Shown here in pieces: positions 919 to 50,225 of a stretch of DNA of 64,000 bases. The stretch is from positions 64,001 through 128,000 of the forward strand of contig CAWCLO010000007.1 in NCBI GenBank assembly GCA_963796455.1. The letters run 5' to 3'. Under the pieces are notes generated by a model. It worked only from the letters and a program-made list of their open reading frames with translations, was not told the origin of the DNA and did not search any database. Each line of letters begins with the position of its first letter. Position 1 is the first letter of the stretch. Position numbers and translations under genes: made by a program. This stretch comes from Candidatus Sulfomarinibacteraceae bacterium. Its GTDB lineage: Bacteria; Acidobacteriota; Thermoanaerobaculia; Thermoanaerobaculales; Sulfomarinibacteraceae.

Positions 919-1335
919 GATCACTCGTGTCCAAGACAGTGTCTCGGACAGGATTCAGGGACAGCGACGGGGACCGGCTGGCAGCGTCAGGGTTCAGGGA
1001 CAGCGACAGCGAACGGTAGTCAGCGTCAGAGTTCAGTCGGCAGCGTCAGCAATCAGCGATCAGCGACCGGGACAGCGAACAGCACTCACATCTTCGGGGC
1101 TCCGGCCTTTGTGGTGCGGCCGTCTCGGCCGCACGGTGTGCGGGCGAGACGCCTACACCACAACGGCTGTTCCTTCCGCTGAATGACCCGGAGGTGGCCA
1201 CTTCGCCGACTGGAATCCTGATCGCTGCCGCCGCCGCTGTCCTCTGTCGCTGTTCCCTGTCGCTGCCCCTGATCGCTGTTGCCTGTCGCTGACGCTGCAA
1301 ATCGGGAGCGCGATCGGGTGTGGGCCGTTCGCGAA
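919..1335 (-). mobile_element. MITE-like composite element, copy A (reverse orientation, far end degenerate)
   Basis: End gatcactcgtgtccaagacag at 919; CAGCGA-rich arm; REP-like doublet 1111-1161; TCGCTG-rich arm; homologous to copies at 32785, 36860 and 39303. Confidence 0.7.
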
Positions 1336-3364: not shown

Positions 3365-3634
3365 GATGCTCGATACTCGATACTCGATATTTGATGCGAA
3401 ATTCAGGATTCAGCACTCATTTCGCCGGGTTCAACAGGCGCCAGATCGTGGCACGGTCCTGATCGAAGGTATTCATCGTGTCACGGGCGGCCGCCCACCG
3501 GCTACCCATTCTGTTGAACGACCCGGAGGCGGCCACTTCGTCGCCTCGACTCCTGACCGCTGCCGCTGGACGCTGCCGCTGTGGCTGCAATCCGGGCACG
3601 GGCATGGGGCAACCGCGAACCGGTATAGGCCAAA
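3365..3634 (-). repeat. Degenerate, rearranged copy E of the composite element (no REP doublet)
   Basis: CTCGATA-type tract 3365-3397; 3510-3634 matches the reverse complement of the left half of copies C/D. Confidence 0.65.
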
Positions 3635-3637
3635 AGG

Positions 3638-4168
3638 TCAGGCCTCGTCGCCCTCTAATTCGAGCACATGAATATCCGGCAGGTTTCGGTAGACCTCGCC
3701 ATAATCCAGTCCGTAGCCCACCACGAAGAGATCCTCGATTTCGGTTCCCAGGAAGGCAATATCGATTTCGACTTGACGCCGCGATGGTTTGGATAAAAGA
3801 GAAACCACCTGAATCGATTTCGGGTGGCGCGCCCCGATCAACTGGATAACGTCGGTCAAGGTGATCCCTGTATCGACGATGTCTTCAACCAGATACACAT
3901 CCCGGTCGCGAACATCGACCGTAATGTCCTTGACCAATACCACCGAACCTGCCGAGGTCGTGCTCGCTCCATAGCTCGAAACCTGGATGAAATCCATTTC
4001 GATCGCGCGATTGATCTGCCGTGTGAGATCGGTGAAAAAAAAGACGCAGCCTTTCAACACGCCGATGAACACCGGTGACCGGCCCTCGAGATCGGTATTG
4101 ATCTCAGCTGCCACCCTCGCAGTCATTGCCTCGATCTCCTGCTTGCTCACTACAATTCGTCCAAGCAT
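3638..4168 (-). CDS. hpt: Hypoxanthine phosphoribosyltransferase
   Basis: GVLKG, VEDIVDTG and FVVGYGLDY motifs. Confidence 0.95.
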   Translation of the reverse strand: MLGRIVVSKQEIEAMTARVAAEINTDLEGRSPVFIGVLKGCVFFFTDLTRQINRAIEMDFIQVSSYGASTTSAGSVVLVKDITVDVRDRDVYLVEDIVDTGITLTDVIQLIGARHPKSIQVVSLLSKPSRRQVEIDIAFLGTEIEDLFVVGYGLDYGEVYRNLPDIHVLELEGDEA

Positions 4169-6607: not shown

Positions 6608-6718
6608 GAGGCTTGGGGCTTGGGGCTTGGGGCTTGGGGCTTGGGGCTTGGGGCTTCTAGGAATTCACTGCTCTTCCGACACTGTCAAGCCTCAAGCCCA
6701 AGGTCCCAGGCCTCAAGC
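6608..6718. repeat. Inverted heptamer pair: (GGGGCTT)x6 / CAAGCCY-type, ~30 bp core
   Basis: Six perfect GGGGCTT units 6615-6656; caagcctcaagcccaaggtcccaggcctcaagc 6686-6718; lies between convergent genes. Confidence 0.9.
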
Positions 6719-14749: not shown

Positions 14750-14864
14750 TGGGGCTATGGGGCATGTGAGGCTATGGGCCTGAGTCTTTGAACCTGTCTG
14801 AGGCAACAAAAAAACCCATTGCCTCATAGCCAGGCCTTGGCCGGTCATAGCCCCATAGCCTCAT
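14750..14864. repeat. Inverted octamer pair (GGCTATGR / YCATAGCC)
   Basis: ggggctatggggcatgtgaggctatggg ... cccattgcctcatagcc...catagccccatagcctca. Confidence 0.7.
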
Positions 14865-24342: not shown

Positions 24343-24404
24343 CCGGGTCTCCCGACCCGGTTTTTTTGTGTCTGGCGCGCAGCGCCAGACACAAAAAAAC
24401 CGGG
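24343..24404 (+). terminator. Terminator hairpin overlapped by a 23-bp perfect inverted repeat
   Basis: ccgggtc-tccc-gacccgg-T7 (24343-24367); IR arms 24356-24378 and 24382-24404. Confidence 0.75.
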
Positions 24405-24583
24405 GCTTGAGGCTTGGGACCTGGGGCTTGGGGATCGAACCCGCGTCCGAACCACCTCTGGTGCCCAGATTGTGGTGCAGGCGTCCCGCCTGCATTCTGT
24501 GCGGCCGGGACGGCCGCACCACCATGAGTTCCTCTCCCCTTCCCCCTTTCTCCCTTTCTCCTCTGCCCCTCTGCCCCTCTGCC
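24402..24583. repeat. Heptamer tract + stand-alone REP-like doublet (24472-24522) + pyrimidine octamer tract
   Basis: ggggcttgaggcttgggacctggggcttgggg; gtggtgcaggcgtcccgcctgca-ttct-gtgcggccgggacggccgcaccac; (ctgcccct)n. Confidence 0.8.
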
Positions 24584-30240: not shown

Positions 30241-30324
<84 letters not shown>

Positions 30325-30857: not shown

Positions 30858-30957
30858 TCCGAGTTCGGAGTTCGGAATTCCCGGTCACCAATTGGTGCGA
30901 GCCGGCAACCCAGAATCAAGAGACAATTCCGAACTCCGAACTCCGAACTCCGAACTC
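30858..30957. repeat. Inverted heptamer pair GGAGTTC / GAACTCC around a ~45 bp core
   Basis: gagttcggagttcggaattcc ... aattccgaactccgaactccgaactccgaactc; right arm overlaps the kdsD stop. Confidence 0.85.
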
Positions 30958-31918: not shown

Positions 31919-32742
31919 ACCTCACGGACGGTGTAGGACACCGCCTCGAGCTGGCCGATCAATCGGTCGAATTCGGCGAAGGAGAGCTGGGTCGTGGCAT
32001 CCGAAAAAGCGTTTGCAGGATCGGGGTGAACTTCGATGAAGAAGCCATCGACGCCGGCCCCGGCCGCCGCCCGCGCCAGATAGGGGTGGAACTCTCGGGC
32101 TCCGCCGGTGGCGTGGCCGAGGCCTCCCGGAAGTTGCAGCGAATGGGTTGCATCGAAGACCACGGGAGCAAATTGGCGCATGGTCGGCAACCCCCGCATG
32201 TCGACCACCAGATTGTGATAACCAAAGGTCGATCCGCGTTCGGTCAGGACGATTTTTTCATTGCCTGTGGCCGCCACCTTTTCAACCACATTGGCCATGT
32301 CCTCGGGTGCCAGGAACTGGCCCTTTTTGACGTTCACCGGAAGACCGGTCTCGCCGCAGGCATGGAGCAAATCGGTTTGCCGGCACAAGAACGCCGGCAC
32401 CTGCAACATATCGACCACTTCCGCTGCCTGCGCTGCCTGCTGAGGATGGTGGACATCGGTGATCACCGGCATCCCGGTCACTCGTTTGACCTCGGCCAGT
32501 GCCTCGAGGCCAGCATCCACCCCGGGCCCGCGAAAGCTCGACTCCGACGACCGGTTCGCCTTGTCATAGGACGCCTTGAAGACAACCGGCACACCATGGC
32601 GCTGGGTGATTTCCTGAATCCGTCCAGCCACCTCGACAACAAAATCCCGCGACTCGACAACACATGGACCGGCGAGATAAACAGGCCGCGCACCGTTCCC
32701 AATCTCAATCCCCGGAGCGATCTCGAAGCTCTTGATTGTCAT
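31909..32742 (-). CDS. kdsA: KDO-8-phosphate synthase
   Basis: AGPCVVES, KASYDKANRSS, PAFLCRQTDL and DATHS motifs. Confidence 0.97.
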   Translation of the reverse strand: MTIKSFEIAPGIEIGNGARPVYLAGPCVVESRDFVVEVAGRIQEITQRHGVPVVFKASYDKANRSSESSFRGPGVDAGLEALAEVKRVTGMPVITDVHHPQQAAQAAEVVDMLQVPAFLCRQTDLLHACGETGLPVNVKKGQFLAPEDMANVVEKVAATGNEKIVLTERGSTFGYHNLVVDMRGLPTMRQFAPVVFDATHSLQLPGGLGHATGGAREFHPYLARAAAGAGVDGFFIEVHPDPANAFSDATTQLSFAEFDRLIGQLEAVSYTVREVCR

Positions 32743-32784
32743 GGGAGGTAGTTTACCAGCAGGTGACCGGATCCTTGATCGTCG

Positions 32785-33241
32785 GTCACTGCTGTACAAA
32801 ACAAATCGTCCTATGACGTTGGCCACTTGACGTCACGAGGTCTGCGGGTTGGATTCTGGCATTTCCGATTCGCCGTTGCCCCGAGTCCGAGTCCGTGTCC
32901 ACGCCCGTATTACAGCGGCAGCGACGGCGTCCAGGGACAGCGACAGGCAGCAGCGACAGAAAACAGCGATCAGTGTTCAGCGGCAGCGGTCAGCGATCAG
33001 CTGCCGTGACGGCGTGGCCACCTCCGGGTCGTTCAACGGAAGGAACGGCCGTTGTGGTGTGAGCGTCTCGCCTGCACACCGTGCGGCCGAGACGGCCGCA
33101 CCACAAAGGCCTGAGCCCCGAAGCAGTGAGCGCTGTTCGCTGTCGCTGTTCCCTGTCCCTGCCGCCGATCGCTGGCGCTGATGACTGAACGCCGCCGCTG
33201 TCCCTGAACGTTATCCGAGACACTGTCTTGGACAAGAGTGA
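32785..33241 (+). mobile_element. MITE-like composite element, copy B (between pyrG and kdsA)
   Basis: Degenerate left end gtcactgctgtacaaaac; REP-like doublet 33054-33104; right end ctgtcttggacaagagtga; CAGCATC tract follows at ~33250-33306. Confidence 0.75.
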
Positions 33242-33320
33242 GCAGTGATCCTGCATCCAGCATCCAGCATCCAGCATCCAGCATCCAGCATCGAGTATCG
33301 AGCATCGCCTCGCGGTGATT

Positions 33321-35880: not shown

Positions 35881-36036
35881 TAGTTTTTGCTAATTTATTC
35901 TTTTATAGCAATTTACATAACCAATATTCAATAAAACACTCGTCAAAAACCGACCCGGGCGTAAAAAAACCACGGGCCGCCTTCTCAGACCAGGAATAAG
36001 TTGAGACTGGTGCCTAAAAATGATACAAACAACTGT

Positions 36037-36645
36037 ATGAATTTAACGACCCGCGAACGACTGATCGAGGCCGCGATGCGTCTTTTTGCCGACGGAGGGT
36101 ATCGAGGAGCGTCGGTGCGCGATATCTGCAACCACGCAGGCGCAAACCCCGGTGCGATTTCTTATCACTTCGGCGGCAAGCGCCAGCTCTATCGGGCGGT
36201 TCTGCGGCGAGCAGCATCCGATCTTGCCGATACCGGACCCGTGGCCGCGGACGAAAACGGCGAAGCCGCGCCACTTCAGATCCGCGAAGTCCTCCGCCGG
36301 GTCTTTGTCCGGACCGGGGAAAACCAGATCGCCACCCGGCTCCTGCTGCGTGATCTTGCCGACGGAGGAGCGGTTGCCGTTGAATCACTGACCCCGCCGC
36401 TTCGCAACGCATTCAAAGAGATCGCCAATTCACTCGGGCACGGCGACAACCCCCGGGCGAGCTTGGAAAGCCGGCTGTTGTTTCTCGATCTCGCCGCTCC
36501 GATTTTTGTCTTGACCGCAGCCTGGCCCATCGTCGCGCAGGCCCTTGAACTCGATATCGATCAGCGCGAGGCATTGTTCGAGAGGATGGTGGGGCGCGCA
36601 CTGGAATCGGGTGGAGAAGGCGAGGAGATAGAAGCTAGATGCTAG
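36037..36645 (+). CDS. TetR-family regulator (CecR/YbiH-like)
   Basis: TRERLIEAAMRLFADGGYRGASVRDIC...ISYHFGGK HTH; stop codon lies in the GCTAGAT tract. Confidence 0.9.
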   Translation: MNLTTRERLIEAAMRLFADGGYRGASVRDICNHAGANPGAISYHFGGKRQLYRAVLRRAASDLADTGPVAADENGEAAPLQIREVLRRVFVRTGENQIATRLLLRDLADGGAVAVESLTPPLRNAFKEIANSLGHGDNPRASLESRLLFLDLAAPIFVLTAAWPIVAQALELDIDQREALFERMVGRALESGGEGEEIEARC

Positions 36646-36752
36646 ATGCTAGATGCTAGATGCTAGATGCTAGATGCTAGATGCTAGATGCTAGATGCTA
36701 GATGCTAGATGCTAGATGCTAGATGCTAGATGCTAGATGCTAGATGCTAGAT
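36634..36752 (+). repeat. Perfect heptamer tandem repeat (GCTAGAT)x17
   Basis: Counted directly. Confidence 0.97.
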
Positions 36753-36859
36753 GCGGCAAGATCGTCGACTATCCCCAACCGATGTCAAGAGCATTTCTGA
36801 AATCTTGTTGATCTGCCGATTGCAGAGGTTGATGAAAGAGGCTGAATCCTGCTTCCTGC

Positions 36860-37357
36860 ATCACTCTTGTCCAAAACAGGTCGTCACCTGAAGTTTCCCA
36901 CCTGACACCATGTGGTTTAAGGGTTGGTTTTTGGCATATCCGGTTCGCGGCTGCCCGTGCCCGTGTCCGCGTCCGCGTCCGAATTGCAGCGGCAGCGACA
37001 GTGTCCAGGGTGCAGGGACAGCGACAGGAGGCAGCGTCAGCGGCAGGGATCAGCGACGGAGATCAGCAATCAGTGTTCAGCGGCAGCGGTCAGGAGTCCA
37101 GTCGCCGAAGTGGCAACCTCCTGGTAGTTCAACCAAAGGAACGGCCGCTGTGGTGTAGGCGTCTCGCCTGCACACCGTGCGGCCGAGACGGCCGCACCAC
37201 AAAGGCCGGAGCCCCGAAGAAGTGAGTGCTGTTCGCTGTCCCGGCCGTTGATCGCTGACGCCGATGACTGAACGCTGATGCTGACTACTGTCCCTGCTTG
37301 CCGTCCCTGTCGCTGTTCCTGAAATCTGTCCGAGACTCCGTCTTGGACAAGAGTGAT
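36860..37357 (+). mobile_element. MITE-like composite element, copy C (best preserved)
   Basis: Perfect 15-bp IR atcactcttgtccaa (36860-36874) / ttggacaagagtgat (37343-37357); REP-like doublet 37150-37200; CCWGCAT-type heptamers on both sides. Confidence 0.8.
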
Positions 37358-37394
37358 CCAGCATCCAGTATCTTGCACCCAGCGCGCTCCCGCG

Positions 37395-38531
37395 CTACAG
37401 CACCTCTTCGGTGATGACGAATTCCACCCCGTGTCGTGCGAGGTACTGGAAAATGTAGTCGTAGCAAGCCGCATCGCGACCCACGATTTCTGGTGGTGAC
37501 AGTCCTTTTTCCGAAAAGAGGCCGTCGGCAATCGCGTTGACCATCGCCGTACAGGTATAGCCGGTCGTGCGGGCCATCGAGGTGATCCCGGTTTCGTGAT
37601 TGTAGCGGTCGAGGAGATCCCACCGCCGGATGACATATTCGCCGTCGACCACGCCCTCGACCTCGACCCGCATCACCGTCACATCCTCCTCCCCTTCTTC
37701 CAGTTGCCAGGCAGGAATCAAGAGTTTGGCGGTGAGATCGATCGGCCGAACCTCGGTGTCGCCGACGACCATCGGTTCTTCGTCGAAAAACCCGGTATCG
37801 CGAAGCATCGACATCTGTTCGCAATGCCCCGGGTAGCGCATCGTCTTTTCCTTCATATCCGGAACCTTGGAGGTCTTGAGCAGGGTCCGGAGACCATCGG
37901 TATTGAAAGCCTCGAGTGTGCCGACCCTGTCAAAGTCCAGCGCCTCGATCTCGGACAGCGCCGGTCTGGTCACGATCTCACCGGCCTCGACCAGTCGAGC
38001 CGGCCTCGTGTATTCGGCGATCACATCAATGGGCGAAAAGGGCGCCTTGTACTGAAAGGGCCAGTGGCGTGCGACAGGCACCCCACCGACATAGCACCGG
38101 AAGGCATCCACACGTTCCCAGGAAGCCTCCGCGCGACCGAGGATCAGATTCGAACAACCGGGCGCCACGCCGCAGTCCATGACGGCCGTGACTCCGCGAT
38201 TCACGGCAACCAGATGGAGCGGCCACGGCTCTTCTTCGAAAAAGGAGATATCAACGACATTGACGCCGCCTTCGATGATTCTGCCCAGGGTCGAGAAACC
38301 CATCGGACCCGGCACGGCACCGACCACAAGATCACATCCGGCAATGACCCGGTCTATCTCGGTGGGAACCCCAAGATCGGCGCATTCGGTGCGCAGTCCC
38401 GAAACCCGACTCAAGCGACCAAGAGCCTGCTCCGATAAATCCGCAACCGTCAGGTCGAATCGACCCGCCGCCGCCAGATCCCGCGCCATCGCCTCTCCCA
38501 CTCTTCCTGCTCCAAGAATGACAATCCTCAT
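37395..38531 (-). CDS. Saccharopine dehydrogenase family protein (lysine 6-dehydrogenase-like)
   Basis: GAGRVG, DCGVAPG, EAFNTDGLRTL, KTMRYPGH and SMARTTGY motifs. Confidence 0.88.
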   Translation of the reverse strand: MRIVILGAGRVGEAMARDLAAAGRFDLTVADLSEQALGRLSRVSGLRTECADLGVPTEIDRVIAGCDLVVGAVPGPMGFSTLGRIIEGGVNVVDISFFEEEPWPLHLVAVNRGVTAVMDCGVAPGCSNLILGRAEASWERVDAFRCYVGGVPVARHWPFQYKAPFSPIDVIAEYTRPARLVEAGEIVTRPALSEIEALDFDRVGTLEAFNTDGLRTLLKTSKVPDMKEKTMRYPGHCEQMSMLRDTGFFDEEPMVVGDTEVRPIDLTAKLLIPAWQLEEGEEDVTVMRVEVEGVVDGEYVIRRWDLLDRYNHETGITSMARTTGYTCTAMVNAIADGLFSEKGLSPPEIVGRDAACYDYIFQYLARHGVEFVITEEVL

Positions 38532-38667
38532 CAACACCTCCGGGTGGGAAAGATTACACCACCCTCCGTCCCTCACGATACCCATGTGGCGAACTTCTCC
38601 TGCCGGAGACCCGGCTGGACAGATATCCTGTTATTGAGTAAAAACACTCGCGCGAAGGAGTGCTCGA

Positions 38668-39066
38668 ATGGCTGAAAGAAACAATCTCCAAACCCTCATG
38701 CTCATCCTCGAAGCGTTCAACAGCAACGACGTCGATGCAGCCTCCGAACACGTGGCCGAAGACGTCGTCTACACTGTTCGCGGTCGCGCCTCGGTCAGCG
38801 GCACCTTTCACGGTCGCGAAGAGGTCGCCGGAGTCTTGCGACGGATCAAAGAAATGACCGGCGGCACCATGATCGGCATCCCCGAGGTGGTGTTGTCGAA
38901 CGGCAACCACGTCATGATGTATATGAATATCAGTGGACTGCGACCCGACGGCCGCCGGTACGACAACTACCAGGCTTATCTCTACCGTTTTCGCGACGGC
39001 CAACTCATCGAAGGCCAAACCATACCCGTGGATCAGCACGCCTTTGCGGAGTTTCTCGCGGATTAG
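38668..39066 (+). CDS. SnoaL/NTF2-like protein
   Basis: AEDVVYTVRG, SGTFHGREEV and YRFRDGQLIE motifs. Confidence 0.85.
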   Translation: MAERNNLQTLMLILEAFNSNDVDAASEHVAEDVVYTVRGRASVSGTFHGREEVAGVLRRIKEMTGGTMIGIPEVVLSNGNHVMMYMNISGLRPDGRRYDNYQAYLYRFRDGQLIEGQTIPVDQHAFAEFLAD

Positions 39067-39082
39067 TGGAGGCCTCACGGCC

Positions 39083-39195
39083 GCTGGATGCTGGATGCTG
39101 GATGCTAGAATGCTAGATGCTAGATGCTAGATGCTAGATGCTAGATGCTAGATGCTAGATGCTAGATGCTAGATGCTAGATGCTAGATGCTAGAT
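39083..39195 (+). repeat. Heptamer tandem repeat: 3x GCTGGAT + GCTAGAAT + 12x GCTAGAT
   Basis: Counted directly; followed by the same ~95 bp core as at 36753-36848. Confidence 0.95.
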
Positions 39196-39302
39196 GCGGC
39201 AAAACTGTCGATTATCCCCGACCAATGTCAAGAGCATTTCTGAAGTCTTGATGATCTGCCGATTGCAGGGTTTGAGGAAAGAGGCTGAATCCAGCATCCA
39301 GT

Positions 39303-39761
39303 ATCACCGCTGTCCAAAATAGATCGTCACCTGAAGTTTCCCACATGACAACACGTGGTTTATGGGTTGGTTTTCGGCATATCCGGTTCGCGGTTGCCCG
39401 TGCCTGTGCCCGTGCCCGCGTCCGAATTGCAGCGGCAGCGACAGTTTCCAGCGACAGCGACAGGGAGCAGCGACCGGGTTCAGCGATCAGTGTTCAGCGG
39501 CAGCGATCAGGAGTCCAGGCGACGAAGTGGCCTCCTCCGGGTGGTTCAACAGAAGGAACAGCCGTTGTGGTGTAGGCGTCTCGCCTGCACACCGTGCGGC
39601 CGAGACGGCCGCACCACAAAGGCCGGAACCCGAAGAAGTGAATGCTGTTCGCTGTCCCGGCCGCTGATCACTGACGCTGATGACTGATTGCTGCCGCTGA
39701 CTCCTGATCTCTGTCGCTGTCCCTGTTCGCTATCCGAGACTCTGTCTTGGACAAGAGTGAT
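39303..39761 (+). mobile_element. MITE-like composite element, copy D
   Basis: Left end atcaccgctgtccaaaatag; REP-like doublet 39567-39617; right end ctgtcttggacaagagtgat; C(C/G)AGCAT tract runs on to ~39830. Confidence 0.8.
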
Positions 39762-39852
39762 CCAATATCCAGCATCCAGTATCGAGCATCGAGCATCGAG
39801 CATCGAGTATCGGTATCGTGCATCCAGTATCAGCGACAGACAGGGAGCCATC

Positions 39853-49039: not shown

Positions 49040-49312
49040 CGAATTGGATCTTCGCTCAGGATGACATCGGGAGGCGACCTACCCGGGCCAGCGAATTCAT
49101 AGGCGGGCGTTTCCCCCTTTCCCCCTTTCTCCCCTGCCCCTCTGCCCCTCTGTTCCTCTGCTCCCATTCGGGTTCGGAATCCACAACTGCCGTTCGATAG
49201 CGATAGCGATAGCGATTCCGATAGCGATAGCGAGGATGCCGAGCGGTCCCCTGCACCCTTTCCCCCTTTCTCCCTTTCTCCTCTGCCCCTCTGCCCCTCT
49301 GCCCCTCTGCCA
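49040..49312 (+). repeat. Second composite repeat family, copy 1
   Basis: Pyrimidine octamer tracts flank core ttcgggttcggaatccacaactgccgttcgatagcga + (CGATAG)n + ggatgccgagc. Confidence 0.75.
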
Positions 49313-50059: not shown

Positions 50060-50225
50060 ACACCGGGAGGCGACAATCGCGTGGGTAGGAATTCAGTGCC
50101 AGGTGATTCTCCCTTTCTCCCTTTCCCCCTTTTTCCCTTTCTCCCCTGCCCCCCTTCTCCCTTTCGGGTTCGGAATCCATAGCTGCCGTTCGATAGCGAG
50201 AACAAGGATGCCGAGCAGTCCACTG
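50060..50225 (+). repeat. Second composite repeat family, copy 2
   Basis: cgggaggcgac...gaattc, pyrimidine tract, ttcgggttcggaatccatagctgccgttcgatagcga...ggatgccgagc; direct repeat of the 49040-49250 region. Confidence 0.75.

What the first reader, a model, noticed from the sequence alone, without database searches (positions are those of the whole stretch)
36634..39830. Nested mobile-DNA system: a TIR element inside heptamer microsatellite tracts, carrying a REP-like doublet
Seen: two ~750 bp direct copies (36634-37380, 39083-39830) share three layers. Layer 1 is a (GCTAGAT)n tract, a ~95 bp core, then an inverted (CCAGCAT)n tract. Layer 2 is a 460-500 bp element ending CAC...GTG with AT on both sides, inside the right-hand tract. 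Deleting it plus one AT restores the heptamer register in both copies (C: cctgctt cctgcAT ccagcat ccagtat; D: ccagcat ccagtAT ccaatat ccagcat). Layer 3 is a 51-bp REP-like inverted doublet at its centre, between CAGCGA- and TCGCTG-rich arms. Further copies lie at 32785, 919 (reversed, next to a different heptamer, CAAGCCT) and 3365 (degenerate). No transposase is in the window. Inference: a non-autonomous element that targets microsatellite tracts as safe sites, analogous to telomere-repeat-targeting elements in eukaryotes. I know of no described bacterial equivalent. C and D may derive from one ancestral insertion, so only A and B offer possibly independent sites.
Basis: partly seen in the sequence, partly recalled or inferred. 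Interest (0 to 1): 0.85.

Follow-up and report, generated by a model that had tools for sequence, protein, structure and literature searches.

The report
IS4 mini-transposon landing in heptamer repeats
These repeats are copies of a small DNA element that has the ends of IS4-family insertion sequences but no transposase gene; most copies in this bacterium and its relatives sit inside runs of one 7-base repeat, likely because a borrowed transposase prefers the symmetric 9-base site that those runs contain.

Summary
The nesting is real, but two points need correcting. The target duplication is 9 bp, not 'AT': 9 = 7 + 2, so it mimics AT inside a heptamer tract. The ends belong to a known family: the same termini enclose a 1.4-kb IS4-family (IS4Sa-like) transposase gene in a sister genome and many others.

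Layer 2 is therefore an IS4Sa-type MITE with at least 95 end-paired copies genome-wide. Its ~850-bp form carries a four-helix-bundle (TIGR02436) gene. The window copies are a derivative whose centre was replaced once by a REP doublet, matching REPs that flank a RAYT gene here.

The tract preference is real. 40 of 73 clean copies lie in tracts, against 2% of random non-coding sites, and 49 of 60 do so in relatives, with or without the gene. Tracts also occur without the element at orthologous sites, and one empty layer-1 copy exists. No matching transposase was found in this 90%-complete genome.

The scan had already reported this IS4-ended cassette elsewhere in this genome. What I add is the test of targeting and a second end family that prefers another tract. 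Verdict: new variant of a known kind.

The parts
36629..36754 (+). Layer 1, copy C: (GCTAGAT)n heptamer tract, 18 units; it supplies the stop codon of the upstream TetR-family ORF (36001-36645)
36755..36849 (.). Layer 1 core, copy C (9 copies in the genome by profile search; carries a TTGACA hexamer pointing into the left tract)
36853..36861 (+). Left copy of the 9-bp target duplication of C (TTCCTGCAT)
36862..37355 (+). Layer 2, copy C: IS4Sa-type MITE. The first ~85-110 nt derive from the IS end downstream of the transposase gene, and the last ~25 nt from the upstream end
36986..37110 (+). Left CAGCGA-rich arm of the captured cassette (approximate limits)
37112..37133 (+). Conserved cassette anchor; in the gene-bearing form it is predicted to pair with the ribosome-binding region of the four-helix-bundle gene
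37150..37200 (.). Layer 3: REP doublet (two inverted GTGG-footed palindromes, 5 nt apart)
37213..37225 (+). Remnant of the last codons and stop of the four-helix-bundle ORF
37226..37325 (+). Right TCGCTG-rich arm, complementary to the left arm (approximate limits)
37356..37364 (+). Right copy of the 9-bp target duplication of C (ATCCAGCAT); tract continues to about 37371
39083..39197 (+). Layer 1, copy D: (GCTAGAT)n tract
39198..39292 (.). Layer 1 core, copy D
39296..39304 (+). Left 9-bp duplication of D (ATCCAGTAT)
39305..39759 (+). Layer 2, copy D (455 bp MITE)
39567..39617 (.). REP doublet of D
39760..39831 (+). Right 9-bp duplication of D (ATCCAATAT, 39760-39768) and the rest of the ATCCAGC/ATCGAGC tract
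32787..33240 (+). Copy B: REP-form MITE between kdsA-like and pyrG genes; doublet 33054-33104; no clean duplication; (ATCCAGC)n tract 33248-33306
922..1310 (-). Copy A: REP-form element with one IS end (922) and doublet 1111-1161; other end missing; lies between AGGCTTG and CAAGCCT arms (right limit approximate)
3365..3640 (-). Decayed copy E: tract, 3' stub of the four-helix-bundle ORF (3417-3491), anchor (3513-3534), short arm; no REP doublet (limits approximate)

Best explanation
Layer 2 is a transposase-less element with IS4-family (IS4Sa-like) ends and 9-bp flanking duplications, likely moved by cut-and-paste by a matching transposase supplied from elsewhere, and it likely lands in ATCCAGC-family heptamer tracts because these repeat a symmetric AT-N5-AT target with matching flanks. 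SHOWN: same termini as 1.4-kb IS4 elements; 9-bp duplication; strong, repeatable tract preference that does not depend on the cargo; tracts exist without the element. INFERRED history: (1) an IS4 lost its transposase gene, keeping about 90 nt of one end and about 25 nt of the other. (2) It captured a hairpin-armed four-helix-bundle cassette, which also occurs without these ends. (3) In one founder the leader hairpin and ORF were replaced by a REP doublet, probably by the resident RAYT. (4) Both forms spread while a transposase was present, and later decayed and recombined. INFERRED: the preference is set at insertion by target sequence (9-mer consensus ATSCWGSAT plus periodic arms) and sharpened by loss of insertions in genes. 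Layer 1 is the landing site, not part of the mobile unit.
For: Ends: both termini enclose an NF033592 / DUF4372+DDE_Tnp_1 transposase gene in G017 (1411 bp) with a YREK motif. Of 124 homologous loci screened, 87 gave an end pair, and 22 of those have an exact 9-bp duplication. Named relative ISGme2 (35% identity) has similar ends and is listed in subgroup IS4Sa, defined by CA------T ends and 8-10 bp repeats. Duplication: k=9 peak, 21 of 73 exact; 33 of 60 exact in relatives. Tract preference: 40 of 73 sites have at least 2 neighbouring units versus 2.3% of random non-coding positions; 27 of 52 perfect ATCCAGC-family arrays touch an element end versus 4 of 190 arrays in the eleven other families listed. 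Relatives: 25 of 31 (G021), 17 of 20 (G006), 7 of 9 (G008/G024/G012/G020); the G021 and G008-type shells are too short for the gene and the copies read carry other hairpins. Sequence rule: about 25% of exact ATSCWGSAT non-coding sites in tracts and 20% outside tracts are occupied (26 and 8 hits; p=0.66), falling steeply with mismatches. Orientation relative to the tract does not follow the nearest copy (21 of 47, shuffled mean 24.3). Cargo: 65 near-full ORF copies. Doublet: nearly all of 68 tight doublets share one junction; the same REPs flank an NF047646 RAYT at C1:952604-953227.
Against: No matching transposase in G000 (genome 90.5% complete) and in only 3 of 61 genomes searched, including none in G006 or G021, whose copies look young. 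Only 1 of 23 autonomous elements with a duplication lies in a tract, and their target profile predicts 5-22% tract sites, not 55%, and favours AAATCCG-type tracts that are rarely hit. So the strong preference is not a property of the whole IS group, and the responsible transposase variant has not been found. 64 of 87 autonomous end pairs show no duplication (cause not tested; some are mis-paired). For imperfect 9-mers, tract context still raises the rate (p=0.004 and 6e-5), so the 9-mer alone is not the whole rule. 4 of 73 copies have inverted flanks that cannot be a duplication. Purifying selection on the cargo ORF (58 of 65 intact, dN/dS 0.14) is not expected of an inert passenger. The coding mask used for controls was crude (long ORFs only).
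Confidence: 0.75

Rival explanations
1. The IS4 transposase is brought to the tracts by a protein that binds them (a host factor or a four-helix-bundle protein acting in trans) or by a DNA structure that the inverted arms form, rather than by reading target sequence.
For: Tract context adds 5- to 30-fold for imperfect 9-mers. Young perfect-duplication copies in G021 have varied 9-mers, yet 13 of 15 are in tracts. Autonomous relatives elsewhere show only a weak target profile. A second end family prefers AACGTT-type tracts and carries the same cassette. 8 of 9 layer-1 cores have element DNA beside them.
Against: Exact ATSCWGSAT sites are hit at similar rates inside and outside tracts. The insertion register in the tract is fixed at AT...AT. 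Shells without the gene show the same preference. Decay of duplications can inflate the context effect in G000.
Confidence: 0.2
2. Copies spread by recombination or gene conversion between heptamer tracts, carrying their flanks with them, with no transposase needed after a few founding insertions.
For: No transposase found. ORF copies are strongly mosaic (1885 of 2628 site pairs fail the four-gamete test). End swaps and inverted-flank copies exist.
Against: Site-specific 9-bp duplications occur at non-tract sites. Exact 9-mers across the element (20 of 50) exceed those one unit away (7 and 13 of 50). Flank polarity does not follow sequence kinship. Many different 9-mers are duplicated exactly in young copies.
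Confidence: 0.1
3. The tracts are products of the element: they grow from the duplicated 9-mer, or from cycles of insertion and excision joined at the AT overlap (+7 bp each).
For: The arithmetic fits (9+9-2 = 9+7), and about half of the perfect arrays of this family touch an element.
Against: The same tract family occurs at the orthologous C site in G018, G006, G015 and G022 without the element; G015, G018 and G004 have no end matches at all. Young copies already have degenerate units on both sides. Other tract families are abundant with almost no element.
Confidence: 0.05
4. One reading: a new class of element with 2-bp AT duplication, unrelated to known IS.
For: Inside tracts, removing the element plus AT restores the register; 48 of 73 sites match at k=2.
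Against: k=9 fits better overall and is the only peak outside tracts; the ends are IS4 ends.
Confidence: 0.02

Closest known systems
IS4 family, subgroup IS4Sa (e.g. ISGme2, ISRm22; De Palmenaer et al. 2008, PMC2266710: passages and supplementary file S3 read)
   Same: CA------T ends, 9-bp duplication within the 8-10 bp range; cognate element 1.4 kb with a single DDE/YREK transposase; target-arm specificity is reported for ISRm22.
   Different: No transposase gene; cargo is a cassette or REP doublet; the target arms are heptamer tandem repeats, which the passages read do not mention (0 hits for 'tandem').
MITEs and mobile insertion cassettes (MIC231 of Bacillus cereus; passages of PMC6199540)
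   Same: IS4-family ends without transposase flanking a passenger ORF (850-bp form) or no ORF (window form); MIC231 is shown to move in trans.
   Different: IS4Sa-like rather than IS231 ends; about 65 gene-bearing copies in one genome; movement in trans not shown here.
REPINs and RAYTs (Bertels and Rainey 2011, PMC3116915: passages)
   Same: Inverted REP doublet forming a hairpin; the same REPs flank a RAYT gene in this genome.
   Different: Nearly all of the 68 tight doublets share one junction, so they were likely multiplied inside the larger element, not one by one; the spacer is only 5 nt.
23S rRNA intervening sequences with S23p ORF (Coxiella; PMC4990558: passages)
   Same: PF05635/TIGR02436 ORF in the loop of long complementary arms; heptamer repeats occur beside the Coxiella ORF.
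   Different: Not in rRNA genes; enclosed by IS ends; RNase III excision untested.
Microsatellite-targeting plant DNA transposons (MuTAnT, PMC4486113: abstract only)
   Same: TIR transposons and short non-autonomous copies concentrated in simple repeats, read as limiting harm to the host.
   Different: Bacterial IS4 ends; 7-bp units rather than TA repeats.
Bacterial elements that target other repeats: ISPpu9 into REPs (PMC12288879), Tn7-like into CRISPR arrays (PMC11837452) (search listings only); SDR5 into HIP1 (passage in PMC5861425)
   Same: Insertion into repeated non-coding DNA.
   Different: Different enzymes or unknown mechanism; targets are not heptamer tandem tracts.

Membership tests
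IS4 family, IS4Sa subgroup (as a non-autonomous derivative) | Ends CA------T | tested here: met
   CACTGCTGT / CACTCTTGT against Table 1 of PMC2266710
IS4 family, IS4Sa subgroup (as a non-autonomous derivative) | Target duplication of 8-10 bp | tested here: met
   9 bp
IS4 family, IS4Sa subgroup (as a non-autonomous derivative) | Cognate single-ORF DDE transposase with YREK motif between the same ends | tested here: met
   L033 in G017: NF033592 251 bits (cut-off 115), Y..R...E......K present; not in G000 itself
IS4 family, IS4Sa subgroup (as a non-autonomous derivative) | Transposase clusters with IS4Sa members on a tree | tested here: inconclusive
   Only similarity: best named hits ISGme2 (35%) and ISAbe18 (34%); ISGme2 is listed in IS4Sa; no tree built
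Autonomous insertion sequence | Encodes its own transposase | tested here: not met
   No transposase between the ends in any G000 pair up to 6 kb; none in the genome
MITE / mobile insertion cassette | IS-derived TIRs, many copies, no transposase, with or without passenger ORF | tested here: met
   95 end-paired copies; passenger TIGR02436
MITE / mobile insertion cassette | Mobilisation in trans | not testable with these tools
   Inferred from shared ends and duplications
REPIN | Inverted REP doublet forming a hairpin | tested here: met
REPIN | Same REP flanks a RAYT gene | tested here: met
   NF047646 80.6 bits, just above the cut-off of 80; flanking REPs match
REPIN | Doublet dispersed as an independent unit | tested here: not met
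   Nearly all of the 68 tight doublets share the cassette junction; other REP clusters do occur free
23S rRNA intervening sequence | Located in a 23S rRNA gene | tested here: not met
   No Rfam match in the window; window copies lie between protein genes
23S rRNA intervening sequence | Excised from RNA by RNase III | not testable with these tools
   Arms are predicted to pair (z -6.9 and -5.5); no RNA holder listed

The most novel reading that the evidence does not exclude
In this genus each family of intergenic heptamer tract has its own specialised DDE mini-transposon (IS4Sa ends with 9-bp duplication for ATCCAGC tracts; GGYTCATCCGG ends with 8-bp duplication for AACGTT tracts). These transposons are actively steered to periodic DNA and repeatedly capture and spread a functional four-helix-bundle cassette. 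This would be a bacterial counterpart of microsatellite-targeting transposons and a route of spread for the unexplained intervening-sequence protein family.
Probability: 0.35. Interest if true: 0.75.

Novelty: new variant of a known kind. Interest (0 to 1): 0.5.

Why it matters
The element type is ordinary, but a bacterial IS-derived element that puts 55-85% of its copies into one family of 7-base tandem repeats did not turn up in my paper searches. A candidate transposase with the same ends is in hand, so repeat targeting can be tested directly. The origin and spread of bacterial heptamer repeats and the function of TIGR02436 proteins are open questions (PMC4679880, PMC4990558). This case separates the players: the tracts come first, the IS shell exploits them, and the gene rides along but stays under purifying selection.

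Tried and rejected
Searches for a mobiliser in G000:
- No transposase between end pairs up to 6 kb apart.
- No IS4 transposase by tblastn, protein or family search.
- The only DDE_Tnp_1 hit (L012) has different ends and a DUF772 domain.
- No reverse transcriptase found (PF00078), so I dropped a retro-mechanism for the repeats.

Other checks:
- No Rfam family in the window.
- Sequencing runs: no RNA holder listed. Contigs of four runs gave only short pieces, and none bridged the insertion site, so there is no same-species presence/absence result.
- A bias of duplication mismatches toward AT next to the element was looked for and was not clear.
- No transposase was found for the second end family in the 7 loci inspected.
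- PDB sequence search gave only weak hits to known four-helix-bundle proteins (2gsc E=0.0014).

Literature:
- Elhai et al. 2008 on small dispersed repeats in Nostoc is not held. I recall that it links such repeats to heptamer tracts, but could confirm only the HIP1 statement. It may be a closer precedent than I could check.
- The end alignments in the IS4 paper's supplements are pictures and could not be read. ISfinder itself was not available.
- Searches for 'four helix bundle protein' / TIGR02436 and DUF4372 gave nothing relevant.
Full report
Observation. Copies C and D are as described: a (GCTAGAT)n tract, a 95-bp core, and a short inverted tract interrupted by a 494-bp or 455-bp element with a central 51-bp doublet. 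Both lie between ordinary genes: C between convergent TetR-family and saccharopine-dehydrogenase-like genes, D between SnoaL-like and YjbR genes. The family is genome-wide. Profile searches gave 126 left-end, 183 right-end and 182 REP hits and 95 end pairs. I kept the 73 pairs whose two 15-nt ends are within 3 mismatches of consensus for flank statistics and dropped 22. An anchor-based census found 181 cassettes: 63 with a full gene, 10 with a deleted gene, 63 with the REP doublet and 45 other; many lack one or both IS ends.

The duplication is 9 bp. Mean identity between the last k upstream and first k downstream bases peaks at k=9 (0.79), with echoes at 2 and 16 that come from the 7-bp period. 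At the 23 non-tract sites only k=9 stands out: 0.70, against 0.43 for k=2 and 0.20-0.33 otherwise. In 60 copies from relatives (31 pairs taken from the G021 hit list, 20 from G006, 9 from four other genomes; not all pairs of those genomes), 33 have an exact 9-bp duplication.

The ends are IS4 ends. An end pattern matched in 17 of 25 genomes of the genus, abundantly in G000, G006, G021 and G008. In G017 the two ends enclose 1411 bp with a 402-aa ORF that scores as IS4 transposase NF033592 (251 bits, cut-off 115), with DUF4372 and DDE_Tnp_1 domains and a YREK motif. The first ~100 nt of the window element align with the stretch downstream of that gene. Among 124 homologous loci from genomes and metagenomes, 87 gave an end pair, many with the same CACTCTTGTCCAA / TTGGACAGCAGTG termini. 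Of these, 22 have an exact 9-bp duplication, 1 has 8 of 9, and 64 have none; some of the 64 are mis-paired and I did not test the cause. ISGme2, 35% identical, is listed in subgroup IS4Sa, whose ends (CA------T) and repeat length (8-10 bp) fit (PMC2266710, passages). No such transposase was found in G000, which is 90.5% complete; matches were in 3 of 61 genomes searched.

The cargo. The ~850-bp form holds one ORF of the PF05635 / TIGR02436 family. Of 65 near-full copies, 58 are intact; pairwise identity is 83-99%, dN/dS is 0.14, singleton pN/pS is 0.49, and 1885 of 2628 site pairs fail the four-gamete test. The gene has thus been conserved and its copies recombine. The same cassette, with its CAGCGA/TCGCTG arms and leader hairpin, occurs in relatives without these ends. 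The same ends occur in relatives around other hairpins (G008, G024, G016, G012, G020, G021). Shell and cassette are therefore separate modules. In the window form the leader hairpin and ORF are gone except for the last codons, and a doublet of GTGG-footed palindromes stands in their place. Nearly all of 68 tight doublets share this junction, which points to one founder. The same REPs flank a REP-associated tyrosine transposase gene. That this RAYT made the replacement is inference. Both forms are predicted to fold into long arm-to-arm stems (z -6.85 and -5.51), as expected from inverted arms.

Layer 1 is the target. The core has 9 credible copies in G000 (8 with E up to 0.04, one at 0.27 with matching structure). 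One (C1:1067945) is empty. The others carry element DNA in the left or right arm, in either orientation. At the site orthologous to B, most of 17 relatives carry heptamer or other hairpin repeats, of several different families, and one has nothing. Only G021 and G008 carry this shell, each in an ATCCAG-type tract and with different cargo and position. At the site orthologous to C, none of 11 regions read has the element, while G018, G006, G015 and G022 have the same tract family. C and D are 88% alike and each has closer copies elsewhere (95% and 93%), so separate insertions are likelier than one ancestral event, though both sit in the same register and conversion could blur this.

How strong is the preference, and why? 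Of 73 reconstructed sites, 40 have two or more neighbouring units, against 2.3% of random non-coding positions. 27 of 52 perfect ATCCAGC-family arrays touch an element end, against 4 of 190 in the eleven other families listed. Relatives repeat this: 25 of 31, 17 of 20 and 7 of 9. The symmetrised target of 54 exact duplications is AT(C/G)C(A/T)G(C/G)AT with periodic arms; it is self-complementary in degenerate form, as suits a symmetric transposase (inference). Exact matches are occupied at 25% inside and 20% outside tracts (p=0.66), so the 9-mer explains much. For 9-mers with 1 or 2 mismatches, tracts are still favoured 5- and 30-fold, partly confounded by decay. Against a family-wide rule: only 1 of 23 autonomous elements with a duplication is in a tract, and their profile predicts 5-22% tract sites and ranks other tract families higher. 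Non-tract copies in G000 are more decayed (0.135 versus 0.086) and cluster by sequence (p=0.012), which may mean an older, less selective wave. I therefore favour a lineage-specific transposase variant that reads the 9-mer and its arms; tethering by a protein or structure remains open. All non-coding controls used a crude long-ORF mask.

A parallel case. A second end family (GGYTCATCCGG) is abundant in G008, G014, G005 and G020. Of 30 loci, 21 gave a pair (some spurious, one element counted twice); flank identity peaks at k=8 (0.71, 6 exact), many sit in AACGTT-type tracts, and 8 rows (7 elements) carry the same four-helix-bundle cassette. Its transposase was not identified.

Comparison and novelty. 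It works like, and meets the tested features of, an IS4Sa-derived MITE or mobile insertion cassette (PMC6199540, passages). It is not an autonomous IS and not an rRNA intervening sequence. The doublet is REPIN-like but was not dispersed alone. Repeat targeting is known for plant transposons (PMC4486113, abstract) and for bacterial elements at REPs, CRISPR arrays and HIP1 (listings; passage). My searches found no bacterial IS or MITE in heptamer tracts, but the library lacks most subscription journals and Elhai et al. 2008. Earlier notes of this scan reached the IS4-end reading for other copies in this genome and described heptamer-armed four-helix-bundle cassettes in other genomes. I found the IS4 link before seeing the same-genome notes, and they are not independent support. 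Verdict: real, a new variant of a known kind, interest 0.5.

Noticed in passing
window 36755-36790 and 39198-39235; other cores: A TTGACA hexamer points into heptamer tracts from 20-29 nt away at 16 of 1176 tract sides (about 1.6 expected), in at least three tract families. Several are copies of one core and the -10 match is poor. It could be a promoter starting at the first repeat unit.
   Followed up: partly
window 36634-36645: The heptamer tract supplies the stop codon of the TetR-family ORF; in several relatives the tract also begins at that gene's stop.
   Followed up: partly
window 32741-33320 and L105-L121: The kdsA-pyrG gap holds different inverted heptamer families in different species (CGGAATT, AACGTT-type, GAGGAAT, GATGCGA, GATGCAG) or none: rapid replacement of layer-1-type units at one site.
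   Followed up: partly
L222-L251 (G008, G014, G005, G020): Second TIR family with 8-bp duplication in AACGTT-type tracts, carrying the same four-helix-bundle cassette; transposase unknown.
   Followed up: partly
G000 C4:1278094, C1:983149, C9:2726, C10:733004: Four unrelated four-helix-bundle genes, each between inverted short-repeat arms of its own kind (6-, 7- or 8-base units) and without IS ends.
   Followed up: no
L001:440-600; relatives: The leader of the cassette gene is predicted to form nested hairpins that cover the ribosome-binding region; the inner stem changes on both sides between species while keeping TGTCAA/TTGACA (seen by eye, not counted).
   Followed up: no
G000 C1:371793-372579, C1:610714-611489, C4:217762-218541: Copies in which one end has been overwritten by the other end's sequence, suggesting conversion between the inverted arms.
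   Followed up: no
window 6610-6718, 14750-14864, 24402-24583, 30242-30323, 30861-30957, 49110-49311, 50107-50165: Further 6-, 7- and 8-base tandem tracts of other families, several as inverted pairs, without this element.
   Followed up: no
L012 (G000 C7:289607-293101): An unrelated IS (DUF772 + DDE_Tnp_1) with its own terminal repeats, next to a transposase-like fragment.
   Followed up: partly
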